Below, in pieces: positions 27,001 to 33,000 of a DNA stretch of 64,000 nt. The DNA lies in assembly GCA_050179755.1 (NCBI GenBank), contig JBFXEV010000001.1, positions 9,994-73,993 of the forward strand. Reading direction: 5' to 3'. Positions within the stretch are counted from its first letter, which is position 1, and every line of letters begins with the position of its first letter. Position numbers: made by a program. The stretch is from Candidatus Babeliales bacterium. GTDB taxonomy: Bacteria; Babelota; Babeliae; Babelales; JBFXEV01.

Positions 27001-30000
27001 TCTAGTTCATTAATTGCATACGCGCCCTCGCGCACTACACGTACCTGAACTTGCGTGCAATCAAGAATAGTAGAGGGGATTACTTGTTTTTTTTCTGATT
27101 CGTCTGTCACAACGCATGCGACTGCTTGAAGAATCTTGGGATCAATATCGCTTACCGTTTCTGGAATTGGTTGACCATGTAAATTAGCACTCGTTGAAAA
27201 TAAGCCCGACATATCTTTAAGAATATCTAATAATCCTGCATGTTGTGGCACTCTCAATGCCACAGTGCCATCGGGCCCCTTTACATAAGAAGGCAATGAT
27301 TCCCTTGCCTTAAAAATTAAGGTTACTGGCCCTGGCCAGCAAGAATCTATCATGCGCTGAAGCCCTGCACTTAAAGGCAGATCAATAAAGTGATTAAGCT
27401 TGCTCTTATCTGCCATTACTATTAAATAAGGCTTATTCTCCCTTTGTTTCAGGCTGTCAAGTTTTTTGAACCCTTCCAGGGTTACAGGCGCTAAAAAACC
27501 AAGAACCGTATCGGATGAGGTAATCGCAATGCTGCCATGAGCCAAAGAGTGTGCCAAAGTGGCTCTAGATGCAGGTTTAGACCAGGTAAGAAATCTTGGA
27601 GACATTTTTAATCTTTTGTAAATAAAGTGATAGAGATTATACGCTATTATTCAATGATTGACATTTTTATAATATAACGTATATTTAATAGTAAGTCATC
27701 TGGTGCCTATTTGCACTATGATCCAGGGTAAAACAGCAAAGCGCATGTTACCCAGTTATCATAACAAAAGGTACTCAATTGAAGAAAAAGCATCAAACTG
27801 GAGATGGACATGATCGACACAAATAAGCGTAAAGAATCAACGCGTACCTCTGACCTTGGCTCGCAACGTAGTTATAACGACGTTGTTGAATTTCTGAATG
27901 CCAATTGGTCGGCCGAACGTACCGATAAAAAATTAACTACTATCAAGCAACTTGATAAAGCACTTGGTTATCCCTCAAAAGCTACCAATGCAATTCTTGT
28001 AGCTGGTACCAATGGTAAAAGTTTAACTATTAACTTTGCCACACAGCTTCTAAAAGAAGAAGGCCTTTCAGTAGGTGCGCTTTATGCACCACACATACTT
28101 ACCTATAACGAGCGATTTGCAGTAGATGGCCAATCTATTGCCAATAAACAATTTACTGATATTGCAAATGAAGTCATTTCAGCTGCACATATTAATAATA
28201 TTGCTGCAGATACACAAGATATGCTCGTTGCAATTGCTTTGCTTTATTTTAAAGAACAAAAAGTTGATGTTGCCTTCTTAGAAGTAGCAGCTAACAGTGT
28301 ATGCGATCCGGTTAATATTTGCGCTCCAAAAGTTCTTGCTATTACGCGTATTACTGATGATCAAATAGATTTACAAGATCTGAGCGTTGCTGCATGGATT
28401 GACCGCTTAACTGAAATGGTGCAACCAGGCACGTGGGTGGCATCTGCTGATCAAAGCAAATTGAACTTACAAGTGGTCCTTAAAAATGTAAGTGAACGTG
28501 GCGGCCAATGGGGCATGCCAATTAGAAAATTAGCACCTTTAGGTTATCCTTTTGAACAATTACATGGCCGTTGTGCAGCACTTGCTGAGCGAATTTGCCA
28601 ATTGTACATCGATAACTATGTAACAAATGATTCAATTATTGTATCGGACAGCCTTCTTGCAAAAGAAAAAGGCCGCCGTGGTCGACCAACGCTTGAGGCA
28701 AAACGCCAAGCGGAATTGAATCCAAAGAAAACTATTGATCAATACTGGCGTGACGTGGTGAGCACGTTGCCAGGTAGATTCCAAATTCTTTCAAAAGAAA
28801 AACCAACTATATTACTTGATAACGCATGCAATATTGATGCGCTCAAAAATTTATTCTTAGGCATTCGCTTGCTCCATTATCAACGCCCACTTAAAGGTAT
28901 TACTTTTATTTTGGCTTGCGATAAAGACAGCATGCATACGGAAGAGTTTTTACGTGCGTTACGTTACTTTGCAAAAAAGAATACTACAAATGTGGTCTTT
29001 TGCCCTCTTGAAAACCAAATTGCTGGTGTACACGAAAATTCATGGGACGTTGAGCAAATAACTAATGATGTAAAAACATTAAAAATCAAGGCTCGTTCTG
29101 CAAAATCATTTGATGATGCATTTGAAATGGCAAAGAAATCTGTAGATGAACGGCAAGGACTGGTGGTTATTACCGGCTCTAAATCAATCATTGCACAATT
29201 CTGGCATCACAAAGGCATCAAGAAGTTCTAATTGCATGATACTTGGCCCTACGCTACTATCCATGTTGATTGGTATAGTAACAGGAATATTTTATTACGG
29301 CCTTTCTTTTGTAGGAATACAAAGGAACGGCCGTTTCTATTCTCACCAAAAAACTAGGCCAACAACATTCCCCTTTTCTTACCTTTATATGTCTACCATT
29401 CGCATACTCATAATATCTTGTCTATTCTATCTAATATTGCGCTTACCACACATTAACCCTATACTAGTAGTAATAATGTTTATGTGTGCGTTCTGGTCAT
29501 TATTATTAGGTAGGGATCTTAATCTATGGAATCGTTTGACCACCTTTTAGATCCTAAAACAATCAATCTTCTTGCCCCATTTGGCATAGACAACAAATTA
29601 TTCTATGTTAATGAGGAAATAATTCTTAATACGTGGCTGGTTCTTTTCATTATACTACTACTGGTGCTTGTTTTACGGTATTATACACGAAAAAAAAGGA
29701 GCATTGGCAGGTCTATTGCTATTTCTATAGTATCGGCATTTATTGATTTAACTACAGAAACTCTTGGCGCATTCCATTATAATCATACCGTCTTTATAGG
29801 CAGCATATTTATTTTTATTCTCATATGTAACTGTATTGTGGTAATTCCTGGCGCAGATGAGCCAACGCGTGATTTAAATACTACAATCGCCCTTGGAGCA
29901 ATTTCCTTTTTATATAAAGAATATTTTTCTATTAAAGCACACGGCTTTTTGGGATATCTAAAAGAATTTACACATCCATTTGCTGTAATGTTTCCACTGA

Positions 30001-33000
30001 ATGTAATTGGTCATCTTTCTAAAGTTGTTTCACTCTCATTTCGGCTTTTTGGAAACATCTTTGGTGGTGCAATTATTTCCACCATCTATAAAGGATTTAT
30101 AACATCATCGATTATCTATCAACTTGCTGGCTTATTCAGTGGTCTCAATTTAATAGTACTATTATTTTTTGGTATATTTGAAGGACTTATTCAAGCCTTT
30201 GTTTTTGCAATGCTCTCACTTACCTATCTATCAATAGCGCTTCAAGGGGAAGAATAAAAACATGGAACAATATGCATACTTTCTCCATTTTATAAGCATT
30301 GGACTAGTAGTAGCATTAACATCTATTGGTGTGGGCATTGGAGCGGGATTTACCGGGCAAGCTACCGTGCGCAATTTATATCGCCAGCCTGGTGCCGCAA
30401 CTGATCTTTATAAAGCTTCATTTATCAGCTTAGCTCTTGTGGAAACCTCCGGTATTTTTAGTATTGTTATGGCATTTATTCTTCTTTTTAATAAAGAAGT
30501 GCCCAATTTTTTTGGCAGTATTGGCACGCTTGGTATTGCTTTTGGACTTGGGATTGCAGGATTTGTAACGGGCATTTATTCATCATTGCCTGCGCAAGCA
30601 GCCTTTAAAGCGATTGCTCGTCAGCCCTTTTTTGCTCCTCGCATTATTAACTTGATGGTCATCGCCCAATCACTCATTCAAACACCAGTAATTTTTGGGC
30701 TCATTGTCTCATTACTTATTAGCGCATCTATCAGCTCCGCTCAAATGCTTGCAGAAGGCACTCAACTACTTGCTGCTGGCCTGTGTATTGGCCTTGGCAG
30801 CATTGGTCCAACTATTGGCCTTGGCAGATTTACGTATGAAGCTTGTTATACTGCAGGAATCAATCGCTCAGCATATGGCAAGATTGTACCGTTTACTCTT
30901 ATAAGTGGTGCCATTATTGAAACGCCGCTTATTTTTACACTTATTGTTGCCTTACTAGTTACCCAAACAACATTTGAAAATTCATTTGTAGAGATAGTAA
31001 TTCCGTTTATGGCAGCTTTGTGTATGGGATTAGGAGCACTCGGCGCTGGCCTTGCCTCATCACGCACAGCAACTGCTGCATGTATTGGCATTGGCAAAGA
31101 TCCACATGCAACTTCTTTAATCTCTAAAGCAAGTTTGGTAGCACAAGCGCTTATTGACGCGATTGCTATATATGCTTTGCTTATTGCCTTGTTAATGATA
31201 TTCTTAAGATAAAAAATAGATAACCCTACTTGGCTAAAGCTACCAAGGGTTCTACTTGCCTTTCATCGGCAACTTAAGCAACGAGGTTTTTAGGCGAAGT
31301 AGAAAAAATGAATGAGAGAGCAAGCAATGAAAAAACAACCCCATATCATCTACATTATCACCAAACTTGAACTTGGTGGTGCTCAAAAAATTTGTCTTGC
31401 ATTATTTAATAACGCAGACCCATCTTGCACTTCCTTAATTTCTGGAACTAAAGGGCCGCTTACTGAACTTGTTAAAGACAAACAAAATGTATATTTATTA
31501 CCACAGTTAACGCGTGAGATTTCTTTTTTTGGCGTATTCAATGAACTCAGTGCGCTCTGGGCGATTACTCAAAAATTACGACAATTAAAGCGAATGCATG
31601 GCAATGTAATCGTACACACGCATAGCACCAAAGCTGGCTTACTTGGCAGATGGGCAGCTTTCTTTGCGGGCATACAAACACGCATACATACCGTACATGG
31701 TTATTATGCGTTTCATGAAAATCAAAATATTATTATTTGGACTATTACCTATCTATGTGAACTAATCACTAGTTTTGTAACAACTCATTATGTTTGTACT
31801 ACCTCACACGATGTAGAAGAAGGAATTCGATTATTACCACATTTTAGTTCTCGCCATTCAATAATTCGCCCTGCTGTAAGTGTAGAGCAATTTATCCCAG
31901 CTCATCAAGCTGCATCTTTTCCTCAAGAAAAAGAATTATTTGTTTTTGGTTGTGTGGCATGCTTTAAACCACAAAAAAATATTTTTGATCTACTACAAGC
32001 ATTTCGCTTAGTACATATCCATAATCCAAAAACTCGTTTGGAACTTATTGGTGACGGCGCATTGCGACCTGCCATTGAAGATTGGATTCAAGCTCATCAA
32101 TTAACAGAAGTAATCACCTTGCATGGCTGGCAAGATAACGTGGCGGCTATCATGAGCTCGTGGCATGCTTTTGTATTAAGTTCATTGTGGGAAGGAATCT
32201 GTATGGCAATAGTAGAAGCGCGTCTGCTTAAATTACCAATACTATCCTATAATACTGGTGGCATTAAAGACGTTGTAATACATGGTAAAAATGGTTTTTT
32301 ATATCCTCAAAAACAATGGCAACAACTTTCACATGGCATGCTTGCACTAAGCACAAATGCTTTATTACATACCAAATTACAATCTCATGCTGATAACCTT
32401 AATGAATTTTATATTGAAGATATGATTGATCGACATCGAAAACTATATCAATTAATAAAATAAGCTTATAAAAATAAGTGACAAATCACTGATTTTTTTG
32501 CTATCTTAATACTGATATCAATTTTTTGATAATAATCATTACGAGGCGACAATGCAAAACACTACCATTCAAGAAATCAACAAGAAAACACCCAGTACTC
32601 ATCACGAACCAATACACTATAAAACTCTTCTTGAATCCATTGGGAATACGCCATTGGTAAAATTGAATGTTGACGTACCATGCACCGTTCTTGCAAAACT
32701 CGAATTCTTGAATCCCGGTGGTAGTTTAAAACCACGATGCGCACTCTACATGATAGAACAAGCTGAAAAAAATGGTTCTCTTCTACCAGGTGGCACTATT
32801 GTTGAAGCATCATCAGGTAATCAAGGTATTGCGGCAGCCATGATAGGAGCTTTAAAGGGTTATAACGTAATTATTACCGTGTCTCAAAAAATTAGTGCTG
32901 AAAAATTAGCCACCATTAAAGCTTTTGGCGCACAAGTGCTTATGTTTCCACCAGCACCAACGCTTGAACACCCTGATAGCTATCAAAGTAAAGCATGGGA

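What a model noticed while it worked through the whole genome (the two positions that open the first line are those of the whole stretch)
29526..31212. Four-hairpin (8-helix) F-type ATP synthase c subunit beside subunit a
g00030 (C1:40255-41205, 316 aa), directly downstream of the only subunit a gene (g00029), is a covalent fusion of four F-type c-subunit hairpins (8 transmembrane helices). The ion-binding carboxylate is kept in hairpins 1, 3 and 4 (E61, E220, D299) but is a conserved glutamine in hairpin 2 (Q140): 3 ion sites per 4 hairpins. A normal one-hairpin c (g00718, C1:762540-762785) is kept in the b-b'-delta-alpha cluster, so the whole order has two kinds of c subunit, pointing to a hybrid or alternative ring with a lowered ion/ATP ratio, suited to ATP-driven pumping in an organism that imports ATP. 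The epsilon subunit (g00387, C1:402596-402847, 83 aa) is reduced to its beta-sandwich, lacking the C-t [...]
Evidence so far: Pfam ATP-synt_C on g00030; the single c matches three of its four quarters at E<=1e-4 and a five-way alignment puts E61, Q140, E220, D299 in the column of the c1 carboxylate. AlphaFold2 with a 30-row alignment: pLDDT 94.4, pTM 0.89, eight long helices. Alignment of 118 homologues of 315-325 aa: E61 116/118, Q140 113/118, E220 118/118, D or E at 299 115/118. Full length without stops in 116 of 121 Babelales genomes sampled, 100 of 101 of high quality; single c in 41 of 41. One ATP-synt_A gene only (pfam.tsv). g00387 matches only the N-terminal epsilon domain (26.9 bits, cut 27; call 113); orthologues in 26 of 31 genomes, all in open frames of 79-114 codons.
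(Added by a program. Inside this text positions count along the whole contig: contig position 9,994 is position 1 of the stretch shown here. "Call 12" and the like, gene names such as g00115 and contig names such as C1 are that model's own, and its searches are not shown. The text may have been shortened before it was handed on; [...] marks where a part breaks off. The agent that wrote the report below was given it as the finding of a first reader that could run no searches.)

Follow-up and report, generated by a model that had tools for sequence, protein, structure and literature searches.

The report
Four-hairpin rotor subunit, Dependentiae ATPase
An intracellular, ATP-importing bacterium encodes a rotor protein for its only F-type ATPase made of four fused c-subunit hairpins, one of them unable to carry an ion, beside a normal sodium-type c subunit; it is a distinctive member of a wide, little-described family of mixed rotors whose only studied example is Acetobacterium woodii.

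Summary
Window 29526-30257 is the genome's only subunit a gene. Window 30262-31212 encodes 316 aa made of four ATP-synt_C hairpins, with E61, Q140, E220 and D299 in the carboxylate column. Of 118 homologues, 110 read acid-Gln-Glu-acid. The gene is found in 255 of 261 genomes of the phylum. A single-hairpin c lies 722 kb away.

- Fused F-type c subunits of 2 to 6 hairpins are common in other phyla. There they sit in the order a, multi-hairpin c, single c, as in A. woodii. The architecture is therefore not unique to this group. The scan had noted this family before on other DNA.
- The single c carries the full Na+ motif, Q...E[ST][ST]xxY, in 21 of 21 genomes.
- The E220 and D299 sites are poor in Na+ ligands, so "three sites" rests on the carboxylates alone.

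Best reading, inferred: a mixed c4 + c1 ring in an ATP-driven, probably Na+, pump. It differs from its relatives in keeping three of four acids, in its split operon and in its short epsilon. Ring make-up was not tested. I class it as a new variant of a known kind.

The parts
29236..29550 (+). Small membrane-protein gene (104 aa from the first ATG inside the conserved part) in the position of atpI. It overlaps the start of subunit a by 25 bases.
   Evidence: ORF. Relatives lie upstream of subunit a in 6 of 11 other loci by tblastn and in 9 of 12 loci by reading the frames. PF03899 (ATP-synt_I) matches only below its cut-off: 15.5 and 16.4 bits against 25.1, in 2 of 9 members. The name is therefore tentative.
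29526..30257 (+). F-type ATP synthase subunit a (243 aa), the only one in the genome. The essential Arg is R173, in SLSFRLFGN (codon 30042-30044).
   Evidence: PF00119 at E 1.4e-39. One match in the genome. Alignment to chloroplast and Bacillus PS3 a subunits keeps SLSFRLFGN and IQAxxFAxL. Residue numbers.
30244..30249 (+). AAGGGG, a Shine-Dalgarno-like stretch inside the end of subunit a, 12 bases before the ATG of the four-hairpin gene. The stop of a and that ATG are 4 bases apart.
   Evidence: Sequence read. The same AAGGGG stands 9 bases before the ATG of the single c. This is read from the sequence only; no test of function was made.
30262..31212 (+). Four-hairpin (eight-helix) F-type c subunit, 316 aa.
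   Evidence: Four PF00137 stretches. AlphaFold2 pLDDT 95.1 with eight helices. The best solved relatives cover only half of it: 4bem_J, A. woodii c1.
30262..30498 (+). Hairpin 1 (aa 1-79), active: E61 (codon 30442-30444), signature ALxET. The helix-1 position 28 is Ala here; in 118 homologues it is E 56, Q 35, G 18, A 7, C 1, H 1.
30499..30735 (+). Hairpin 2 (aa 80-158), blank: Q140 (codon 30679-30681), signature QTPxIF. Its loop A-R-Q-P-F-F is nearly invariant.
   Evidence: Q140 in 113 of 118. Loop counts: R120 117, Q121 118, P122 118, F123 117. It is as conserved as the active hairpins: within-group identity 54.7% against 48.3-57.7%.
30736..30975 (+). Hairpin 3 (aa 159-238): E220 (codon 30919-30921), signature AIIETPxIF, with Leu187 at the helix-1 ligand position.
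   Evidence: E220 in 118 of 118, P222 in 118, F225 in 118, L187 in 110
30976..31209 (+). Hairpin 4 (aa 239-316): D299 (codon 31156-31158), signature ID(T/A)xxIY. It is the hairpin most like the single c.
   Evidence: D 81 and E 34 of 118; Y304 in 117. Identity to the single c is 35.9% in this genome and 34.4% as a group mean.

Best explanation
The gene encodes a true rotor subunit of this bacterium's single F-type ATPase: four c hairpins in one chain, reading acid, Gln, Glu, acid at the ion-carrying position. I propose that it assembles with the separately encoded single-hairpin c (c1) into one mixed c-ring of the Acetobacterium woodii kind. In that ring a multi-hairpin subunit contributes at least one hairpin that cannot carry an ion, and the ring turns against the one subunit a (R173). 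The cell imports ATP and shows no respiratory ion pump, so the enzyme would run as an ATP-driven pump. c1 has the full Na+ motif and the genome holds Na+-coupled importers, so the pumped ion is probably Na+. The short epsilon lacks the C-terminal helices that in other bacteria hold back ATP hydrolysis. What is shown: the gene architecture, its conservation, the co-retention of both c types, the synteny, and the motifs. What is inferred: co-assembly, the kind of ion, the direction of work, and the c4:c1 ratio.
For: Architecture and conservation. Both c types are kept throughout a phylum of reduced genomes: c4 in 255 of 261, and in 189 of 189 of high quality; 215 of 261 give five PF00137 matches; c1 in all 20 relatives fetched. 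There is only one subunit a, one alpha, one beta and one gamma, so both c types must serve the same enzyme. The a-c4 adjacency holds in 12 of 12 loci. Precedent: the best solved match of both c4 and c1 is A. woodii c1, which reads E then Q (4bem_J). The passages I read say that this ring holds nine single-hairpin c and one c1 and that C. aceticum has the same gene pair. In other phyla, 77 of 80 loci hold a multi-hairpin c plus a single c, and in 72 the order is plainly a, multi c, single c, then delta-alpha-gamma-beta where the locus reaches them. Forms with one acid in five or six hairpins (EQQQQ, EQQQQQ) can hardly turn a ring on their own; that is my inference. Na+: c1 has Q30, E63 and Y68 invariant and S/T at E+1 in 20 of 20 aligned, with S/T at E+2 in 17. 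This fits the rule quoted from the preprint. There are two PF01235 and two PF00474 genes and no PF00999 match. Pump direction: 3 TLC genes; no Rnf/Nqr, COX1 or NuoH match in a one-contig genome rated 96% complete; short epsilon in 108 of 121 genomes. Two papers on the phylum already assume reverse operation.
Against: No experiment or model here shows c4 and c1 in one ring; the complex prediction could not be queued. Unlike every comparison locus, the two c genes here lie 722 kb apart, and c4 is translationally tied to subunit a, which would also fit a ring of c4 alone. c4 hairpins are only 22-34% identical to c1, against 32-75% between the multi-hairpin and single c of other phyla, so the analogy spans a long distance. 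Shared descent with those families is not shown: trees place the hairpins differently by method, and AU tests do not reject a purely internal origin (p 0.627 and 0.545). The Na+ reading rests on a motif. Q and Y are shared with H+ rings of cyanobacteria and chloroplasts. 3 of 20 c1 have Ala at E+2. The E220 and D299 sites have Leu or Ser in helix 1 and Thr-Pro...Phe from the preceding hairpin, which is not a Na+ site by that rule. The membrane pyrophosphatase passes both a 'sodium-translocating' model and an H+ model. Absence of respiratory pumps was tested with three families only.
Confidence: 0.45

Rival explanations
1. The same mixed c4 + c1 ring and the same reverse operation, but coupled to protons, as papers on the phylum assume. 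The Ser/Thr next to the c1 glutamate would then not confer Na+ selectivity in this setting.
For: Yeoh 2015 and Deeg 2019 write of a proton gradient (passages read). The c1 profile scores high against H+ rings of Spirulina and chloroplasts (85 and 75-76 bits). The E220 and D299 sites lack Na+ ligands. 3 of 20 c1 have Ala at E+2.
Against: E[ST][ST]xxY with Q in helix 1 is the published Na+ signature. It is kept in 17 of 20 aligned c1, and S/T at E+1 in 20 of 20. Na+-coupled symporter families are present, and no CPA-type Na+/H+ exchanger was found. Neither paper looked at the c sequence, as far as the passages I read show.
Confidence: 0.2
2. The two c types do not mix. c4 forms its own ring, for instance three copies giving 12 hairpins and 9 acids, and c1 forms another. 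The cell then has two interchangeable rotors with different ion/ATP ratios for the same stator and F1.
For: c4 is tied to subunit a (4-base gap, 12 of 12 loci), while c1 heads the b'-b-delta-alpha cluster 722 kb away. c4 keeps three of four acids, enough for a working ring on its own, unlike the one-acid forms of other phyla. Four-hairpin proteins that read EEEE exist, 15 among the 125 top-150 representatives of 300-335 aa; they could plausibly work alone.
Against: No regulator or second stator is seen. Two rotors for one enzyme in genomes of 0.5-2.4 Mb would be costly, yet both genes are near-universal. In every comparison phylum the two kinds are neighbours in one operon, and in the one case studied they share a ring. 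The conserved Tyr304 and the c1-like outer helix of hairpin 4 fit a c1 neighbour.
Confidence: 0.2
3. Only one of the two is the working rotor. The other has a different role, for instance c4 as a scaffold that nucleates ring assembly or docks the central stalk without cycling ions, or c1 as a remnant.
For: The four loops of c4 are each distinct and strongly conserved: xQP, ARQPFF, GxNRxAY, QIAxxP. This would suit a fixed docking surface for gamma and the short epsilon. An atpI-like gene precedes a-c4.
Against: E61, E220 and the acid at 299 are kept in 116-118 of 118, which a mere scaffold would not need. c1 keeps its full site in 21 of 21, so it is no remnant. The atpI name is below threshold.
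Confidence: 0.08

Closest known systems
Acetobacterium woodii Na+ F1Fo ATP synthase, F/V-hybrid c-ring (c1 with two hairpins plus c2/c3; PDB 4BEM). Clostridium aceticum has the same c1/c2 pair.
   Same: It has an F-type operon and enzyme; a fused c subunit whose first hairpin keeps Glu and whose second has Gln (ETSGIF / QTTGIY in 4bem_J against ETSGIF / QTPVIF here); and a separate single-hairpin c with Q...E[ST][ST]. It is the best sequence and fold match of c4 (E 1.5e-20 by profile; Foldseek E 6.5e-5, TM 0.76 over 159 columns) and of c1 (1.1e-29).
   Different: Here there are four hairpins instead of two, with two further acid-bearing hairpins whose sites lack Na+ ligands. The c genes are split between two loci. 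The organism is an ATP importer without a respiratory chain, where the enzyme must hydrolyse ATP, whereas A. woodii synthesises it. Epsilon is truncated. Ring composition is measured there (9:1) and unknown here.
Multi-hairpin F-type c subunits of Thermodesulfobacteriota, Planctomycetota (including Brocadiaceae), Latescibacterota, Margulisiibacteriota, Cloacimonadota and others. I found no description of them in the texts searched; earlier notes of this scan found them too.
   Same: They are fused F-type hairpins with first hairpin Glu and second hairpin Gln, the QTP..F signature on blank hairpins, and a last hairpin with Tyr at E+5. They are always paired with a single-hairpin Na+-type c. The six-hairpin P0082 aligns to c4 at 33% identity over 96% of it.
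   Different: There the two genes are adjacent, in the order a, multi c, single c. The four-hairpin forms keep one or two acids (EQQQ 11 loci, EQQE 15 loci; none EQED or EQEE among the 80). The single c has Glu, not Gln, in helix 1. Hairpins are 32-75% identical to the neighbouring single c, against 22-34% here. Common descent with the Dependentiae gene is neither shown nor excluded.
V/A-type proteolipids with fused hairpins: Enterococcus hirae NtpK (PDB 2BL2), eukaryotic V-ATPase c subunits, and archaeal forms with 2, 3 or 13 hairpins.
   Same: Hairpin fusion with loss of some ion sites, which lowers ions per ATP (passages). The fold of any two adjacent hairpins matches (2bl2_A TM 0.84 over 160 columns).
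   Different: c4 scores as F-type: F0F1 c models give about 113 bits against 49.9 for V-type K, whose cut-off is 211. It stands beside an F-type subunit a in a genome with F-type b, b', delta, alpha, gamma, beta and epsilon.

Membership tests
F-type ATP synthase subunit c (Pfam PF00137, ATP-synt_C) | A helical hairpin of two membrane helices that matches the family model | tested here: met
   Four stretches, 116.4 bits against a cut-off of 24. Each of the four passes on its own in the genome scan: 45.1, 44.3, 36.6 and 26.7 bits. Eight helices at pLDDT 95.1.
F-type ATP synthase subunit c (Pfam PF00137, ATP-synt_C) | [quoted passage not shown] | tested here: met
   Met in hairpins 1, 3 and 4 (E61, E220, D299) and not in hairpin 2 (Q140).
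F-type ATP synthase subunit c (Pfam PF00137, ATP-synt_C) | F-type rather than V/A-type or N-type context | tested here: met
   The gene is next to an F-type subunit a. Delta is present. F0F1 c models score above V-type K and the alternate-F1F0 c model (113 against 49.9 and 78.3 bits).
A. woodii-type hybrid (F/V) rotor | A fused c subunit in which at least one hairpin has lost the carboxylate | tested here: met
   Q140 in 113 of 118, and M or V in the other 5.
A. woodii-type hybrid (F/V) rotor | A single-hairpin c with a Na+ motif encoded in the same genome | tested here: met
   c1 at C1:762540-762785 reads Q30...E63-S-T..Y68. The same holds in 20 of 20 relatives fetched.
A. woodii-type hybrid (F/V) rotor | Both c genes adjacent between a and b in one atp operon | tested here: not met
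   c4 follows a at C1:40255, while c1 precedes b' at C1:762540. In 12 of 12 loci a glycosyltransferase gene or other DNA, not c1, follows c4. The feature is met in 72 of 80 loci of other phyla.
A. woodii-type hybrid (F/V) rotor | Both subunits present in one c-ring | not testable with these tools
   This needs isolated rings. The complex prediction was never queued.
A. woodii-type hybrid (F/V) rotor | Na+ dependence of the enzyme | not testable with these tools
   Only the motif is available.
N-ATPase (alternate F1Fo) | An operon without delta, with atpQ/atpR, and an alternate-type c and a | tested here: not met
   Delta is present. TIGR03322 gives 78.3 bits against a cut-off of 130.85, and TIGR03306 gives 99.2 against 302.1. 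atpQ and atpR were not searched.

The most novel reading that the evidence does not exclude
c4 does not mix with c1. Instead it forms a ring of three copies: 12 hairpins, 9 acids, and three-fold symmetry that matches F1. Each 120-degree, one-ATP step would then move exactly three ions and pass one blank hairpin whose invariant RQPFF loop holds the stalk. c1 would build a second, all-Na+ rotor, giving the parasite two gears for one enzyme.
Probability: 0.1. Interest if true: 0.85.

Novelty: new variant of a known kind. Interest (0 to 1): 0.6.

Why it matters
Dependentiae are widespread parasites of protists. They live on imported ATP, and their membrane potential is thought to come from this one enzyme running backwards. 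If the reading holds, that enzyme is not an ordinary proton ATP synthase in reverse. It would be a sodium pump with a purpose-built mixed rotor, kept in every good genome of the phylum. That would change how the group's transport and energy budget are modelled.

For the rotary-ATPase field it adds a natural series: two hairpins in A. woodii, two to six in anaerobes, and four with three acids here. In that series the number of ion sites per ring is set genetically. This makes it possible to test how blank hairpins pass subunit a, how ring size is fixed, and whether fewer ions per ATP serves synthesis at low driving force, pumping against a steep gradient, or both. A survey of c-ring sizes that I read in passages discarded c sequences longer than 250 aa, so this family may have been filtered out of such work.

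Tried and rejected
No job ran, so there is no result.
- Expression: no RNA holder was listed for window 29000-32500. 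The three runs listed are DNA contigs of one study and may be the source.
- Origin of the fusion. FastTree on 206 hairpins put hairpins 1, 3 and 4 in a clade of their own. IQ-TREE fast on 102 hairpins put hairpin 1 among first hairpins, hairpin 2 among middle hairpins, and hairpins 3 and 4 with c1. The PMSF tree and AU tests did not reject holding all Dependentiae hairpins together. A run with ultrafast bootstraps timed out. I therefore dropped the idea that c4 equals an A. woodii-like double hairpin plus two fused single c; it stays a lead only.
- A search with the first two hairpins alone found only two 187-aa A. woodii-like proteins; the word index limits that tool.
- The atpI name for the upstream ORF stays below threshold.
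- Promoter-like and terminator-like sites in 28800-31500 were no more frequent than in shuffles.
- V-type and N-type membership was rejected.
- Ion of the pyrophosphatase: both a Na+ model (NF001960) and an H+ model (TIGR01104) pass their cut-offs, so it is undecided.
- Literature. Searches found no text on a fused c subunit or on Na+ coupling in Dependentiae, and none on F-type c with more than two hairpins. Brandt and Muller 2015 (Biol Chem 396:1031, on hybrid rotors) and Matthies 2014 are not held. The former may already list such genes. A citing paper says only that genomes of Rnf-dependent anaerobes regularly hold several atpE copies.

Full report
WHAT IS THERE. On the + strand the window holds a tight gene run.
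- 27804-29231: a 475-aa Mur-ligase/FolC-like gene.
- 29146-29550: a small membrane-protein ORF, conserved from about 29236.
- 29526-30257: a 243-aa protein.
- 30262-31212: a 316-aa protein.
- 31312-32463: a glycosyltransferase.

Pfam calls the 243-aa protein ATP-synt_A (E 1.4e-39). It calls the 316-aa protein ATP-synt_C, with four matched stretches (E 6.5e-34). NCBIfam ranks F0F1 subunit c models first (about 113 bits, four stretches) and V-type K far lower (49.9 bits, cut-off 211).

The whole genome is one contig of 1,525,295 bases, rated 96% complete. Its ATPase inventory is as follows.
- Five ATP-synt_C matches: four in this one frame and one at C1:762576-762767.
- One ATP-synt_A match.
- One alpha and one beta, and one gamma.
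- The single c (81 aa) heads a cluster c, b' (120 aa), b (161 aa), delta (179 aa), alpha (499 aa).
- Beta (490 aa) and an 83-aa epsilon lie at C1:401124-402847.

THE FOUR HAIRPINS. Cutting the 316 aa into quarters and aligning them with the single c needs no internal gap. The alignment places E61, Q140, E220 and D299 in the column of the single c's E63. Identities are 17.7-35.9%, and hairpin 4 is closest to the single c.

In 118 homologues of 315-325 aa the ion column reads EQED 74, EQEE 34, EMED 4, DQED 2, EQEG 2, EQES 1 and EVED 1. The twelve genome loci read directly give the same picture.

Each hairpin has its own conserved signature: ALxET; QTPxIF; AIIETPxIF; ID(T/A)xxIY. Each also has its own loop: xQP; ARQPFF; GxNRxAY; QIAxxP. 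The blank hairpin is as conserved as the others, with within-group identity 54.7% against 48.3-57.7%, so it is not decaying.

AlphaFold2 on a 65-row alignment gives eight long helices at pLDDT 95.1 and pTM 0.90. No solved chain covers more than half of the model. The best are A. woodii c1 (4bem_J), E. hirae NtpK and the V-ATPase proteolipids.

DISTRIBUTION. Named homologues come from Candidatus Dependentiae or Babeliales bins. All 261 genomes held for the phylum count as the same order. Of these, 255 have the gene, including 189 of 189 of high quality; the six without it are 53-78% complete.

By my hand count of the table, 215 of 261 give exactly five ATP-synt_C matches, 34 give four, and 12 give other numbers. 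Of the 150 best rows there, 144 are single c genes in frames of 81-154 codons.

Subunit a directly precedes the four-hairpin gene in 12 of 12 loci. The FolC-like gene lies upstream in 10 of these and the glycosyltransferase downstream in 9. A search of 1.84 billion cluster representatives gives 143 clusters at E <= 1e-30. Among the top 150, 128 have four hairpins.

THE WIDER FAMILY. I read the best 80. They come from Thermodesulfobacteriota and Desulfobacterales, Planctomycetota including Brocadiaceae, Latescibacterota, Margulisiibacteriota, Cloacimonadota and others.
- 78 of the 80 loci hold a fused c: two hairpins in 9 loci, three in 33, four in 28, five in 4, six in 4.
- 77 also hold a single-hairpin c.
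- In 72 the order is plainly a, multi-hairpin c, single c, followed by delta, alpha, gamma and beta where the locus reaches them. This is the A. woodii gene order (passages).
- The ion columns read EQQE 15, EQQQ 11, EQQ 10, EQE 9, ETQ 6, EQ 5, EQQQQQ 4, EQQQQ 4 and rarer forms.
- Blank hairpins mostly carry QTP..F, last hairpins carry (Q/E)ST..Y, and the single c reads E...EST..Y.

So a four-hairpin F-type c is not peculiar to Dependentiae. Four things are peculiar.
- It keeps three of four acids; none of the 80 loci reads EQED or EQEE.
- The two c genes are separated.
- The single c has Gln rather than Glu in helix 1.
- The fused hairpins have diverged much further from the single c: 22-34% identity against 32-75%.

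Earlier notes of this scan describe the same family in other genomes. I read them, and they agree with those calls.

Whether the Dependentiae gene shares descent with these families is open. One tree places hairpin 1 among first hairpins (SH-aLRT 100, 94.6) and hairpin 2 among middle hairpins (99.1). Another places them differently. AU tests do not reject a tree that holds all Dependentiae hairpins together (p 0.627 without c1, p 0.545 with c1).

THE ION. In the own genome and in 20 relatives, the single c has Gln in helix 1, and Glu followed by S/T, then S/T (17 of 20 aligned; Ala in 3) and Tyr at +5. A 2026 preprint, of which I read passages, uses exactly this pattern to call a c subunit Na+-translocating: Glu or Gln in helix 1 plus E[STQ][STQ]xxY. 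It adds that in fused subunits the S/T/Y part is required of the preceding hairpin. Gln and Tyr also occur in H+ rings (EALTIY in Spirulina and chloroplast c), so the Ser/Thr pair is the discriminating mark.

Applying the rule to c4 gives three cases.
- The E61 site has E or Q in helix 1 in 91 of 118 (Ala in this genome). It would be completed by whatever precedes hairpin 1: c1 (S/T, S/T, Y) or hairpin 4 (T/A/S, x, Y304).
- The E220 site has Leu187 and receives Thr141-Pro142...Phe145.
- The D299 site has Ser266 and receives Thr221-Pro222...Phe225.

These last two are not Na+ sites by the rule. They may carry H+, bind Na+ weakly or serve another purpose. Their near-invariance argues for a function.

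The genome holds two Na+/alanine-symporter-family genes and two sodium:solute-symporter-family genes, and gives no match to the CPA Na+/H+ exchanger family. Its membrane pyrophosphatase passes a 'sodium-translocating' model but also an H+ model.

DIRECTION OF WORK. There are three nucleotide-translocase genes. Rnf/Nqr, haem-copper oxidase and NuoH give no match. Papers on the phylum, read in passages, report no electron transport chain or TCA cycle and propose that the ATP synthase hydrolyses ATP to keep a proton gradient. Neither mentions the c subunits.

Epsilon is reduced to its N-terminal domain, and this holds across the phylum: 108 of 121 genomes, frames of 79-123 codons; the other 13 gave no match with this query. 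From general knowledge of bacterial F-ATPases, which I recall and did not test here, the missing C-terminal helices inhibit ATP hydrolysis. Their loss fits a dedicated pump.

HOW IT MOST LIKELY WORKS. There is one stator and one F1 but two near-universal c types. Relatives in many phyla pair a fused c with a single c in one operon. The one such pair studied forms a single ring, nine c2/3 plus one c1. From this I infer a mixed ring of c4 and c1 that turns against R173 of subunit a.

Ions per ATP equals the number of ion sites in the ring divided by three, which is established rotary-ATPase logic. With one c4 and n c1 the ring has n + 4 hairpins and n + 3 acids, so it has one blank, as in A. woodii. 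With more c4 the share of blanks rises towards one in four.

The rivals are a proton-coupled version of the same ring, separate c4 and c1 rings, and a non-cycling scaffold role for one of the two. None is excluded; see the scores given for each.

LIMITS.
- There is no experimental or modelled evidence of co-assembly.
- No RNA data exist for this organism.
- Ion type rests on a motif.
- Absence of respiratory pumps was tested with three families.
- The key review on hybrid rotors could not be read.
- Supplements of the papers were not consulted.

Noticed in passing
window 29236-29550 (+): A small two-helix membrane protein is encoded just upstream of subunit a and overlaps its start. Look-alikes sit in the same place in 9 of 12 loci. 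ATP-synt_I matches only below its cut-off (15.5 and 16.4 bits against 25.1). It may be a ring-assembly factor.
   Followed up: partly
L008:3286-3393 (G000:C1:403362-403469, outside the window): About 500 bases downstream of the epsilon gene lies a 41-codon frame that is 78% identical to residues 46-81 of epsilon. It looks like a partial duplicate.
   Followed up: no
proteins P0214 (968 aa) and P0243 (1139 aa): Two representatives related to the four-hairpin protein hold 13 and 15 hairpins, all with Glu at the ion position: a whole ring in one chain. Taxon and context are unknown. A 13-hairpin case is cited for Methanopyrus kandleri in the preprint read.
   Followed up: partly
representatives, patterns: Among the 125 top-150 representatives of 300-335 aa, 15 read EEEE: four hairpins that all keep Glu. 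This is a different design from the EQED and EQEE of Dependentiae. Their taxa were not looked up.
   Followed up: no
L001:1465-1710 (single c) and window 30607-30639 (hairpin 2 loop): The single c has the loop K-Y-P-E instead of the usual R-Q-P-E; Pro45 is invariant and Glu46 is in at least 90%. The canonical and nearly invariant A-R-Q-P-F-F loop sits on the blank hairpin 2 of the fused subunit. It is a possible fixed contact for gamma and the short epsilon.
   Followed up: no
window 30040-30200 (subunit a, between the last two helices): Against chloroplast subunit a, the alignment shows about 12 extra residues between the Arg helix and the last helix.
   Followed up: no
L009:1501-2121 (G000:C1:586036-586656, minus strand): A third protein matches the ATP-synt_ab nucleotide-binding domain (94.7 bits, 476-codon frame). 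It is neither alpha nor beta and was not identified.
   Followed up: no
window 27804-29231 and 31312-32463: The FolC/Mur-ligase-like gene upstream and the group-1 glycosyltransferase downstream keep their places around a-c4 in most of the 12 loci compared. This is unusually stable synteny for such diverged genomes (40-50% protein identity).
   Followed up: partly
window 1-64000: No tRNA or tmRNA gene and no Rfam family at gathering score in the whole 64-kb window.
   Followed up: yes
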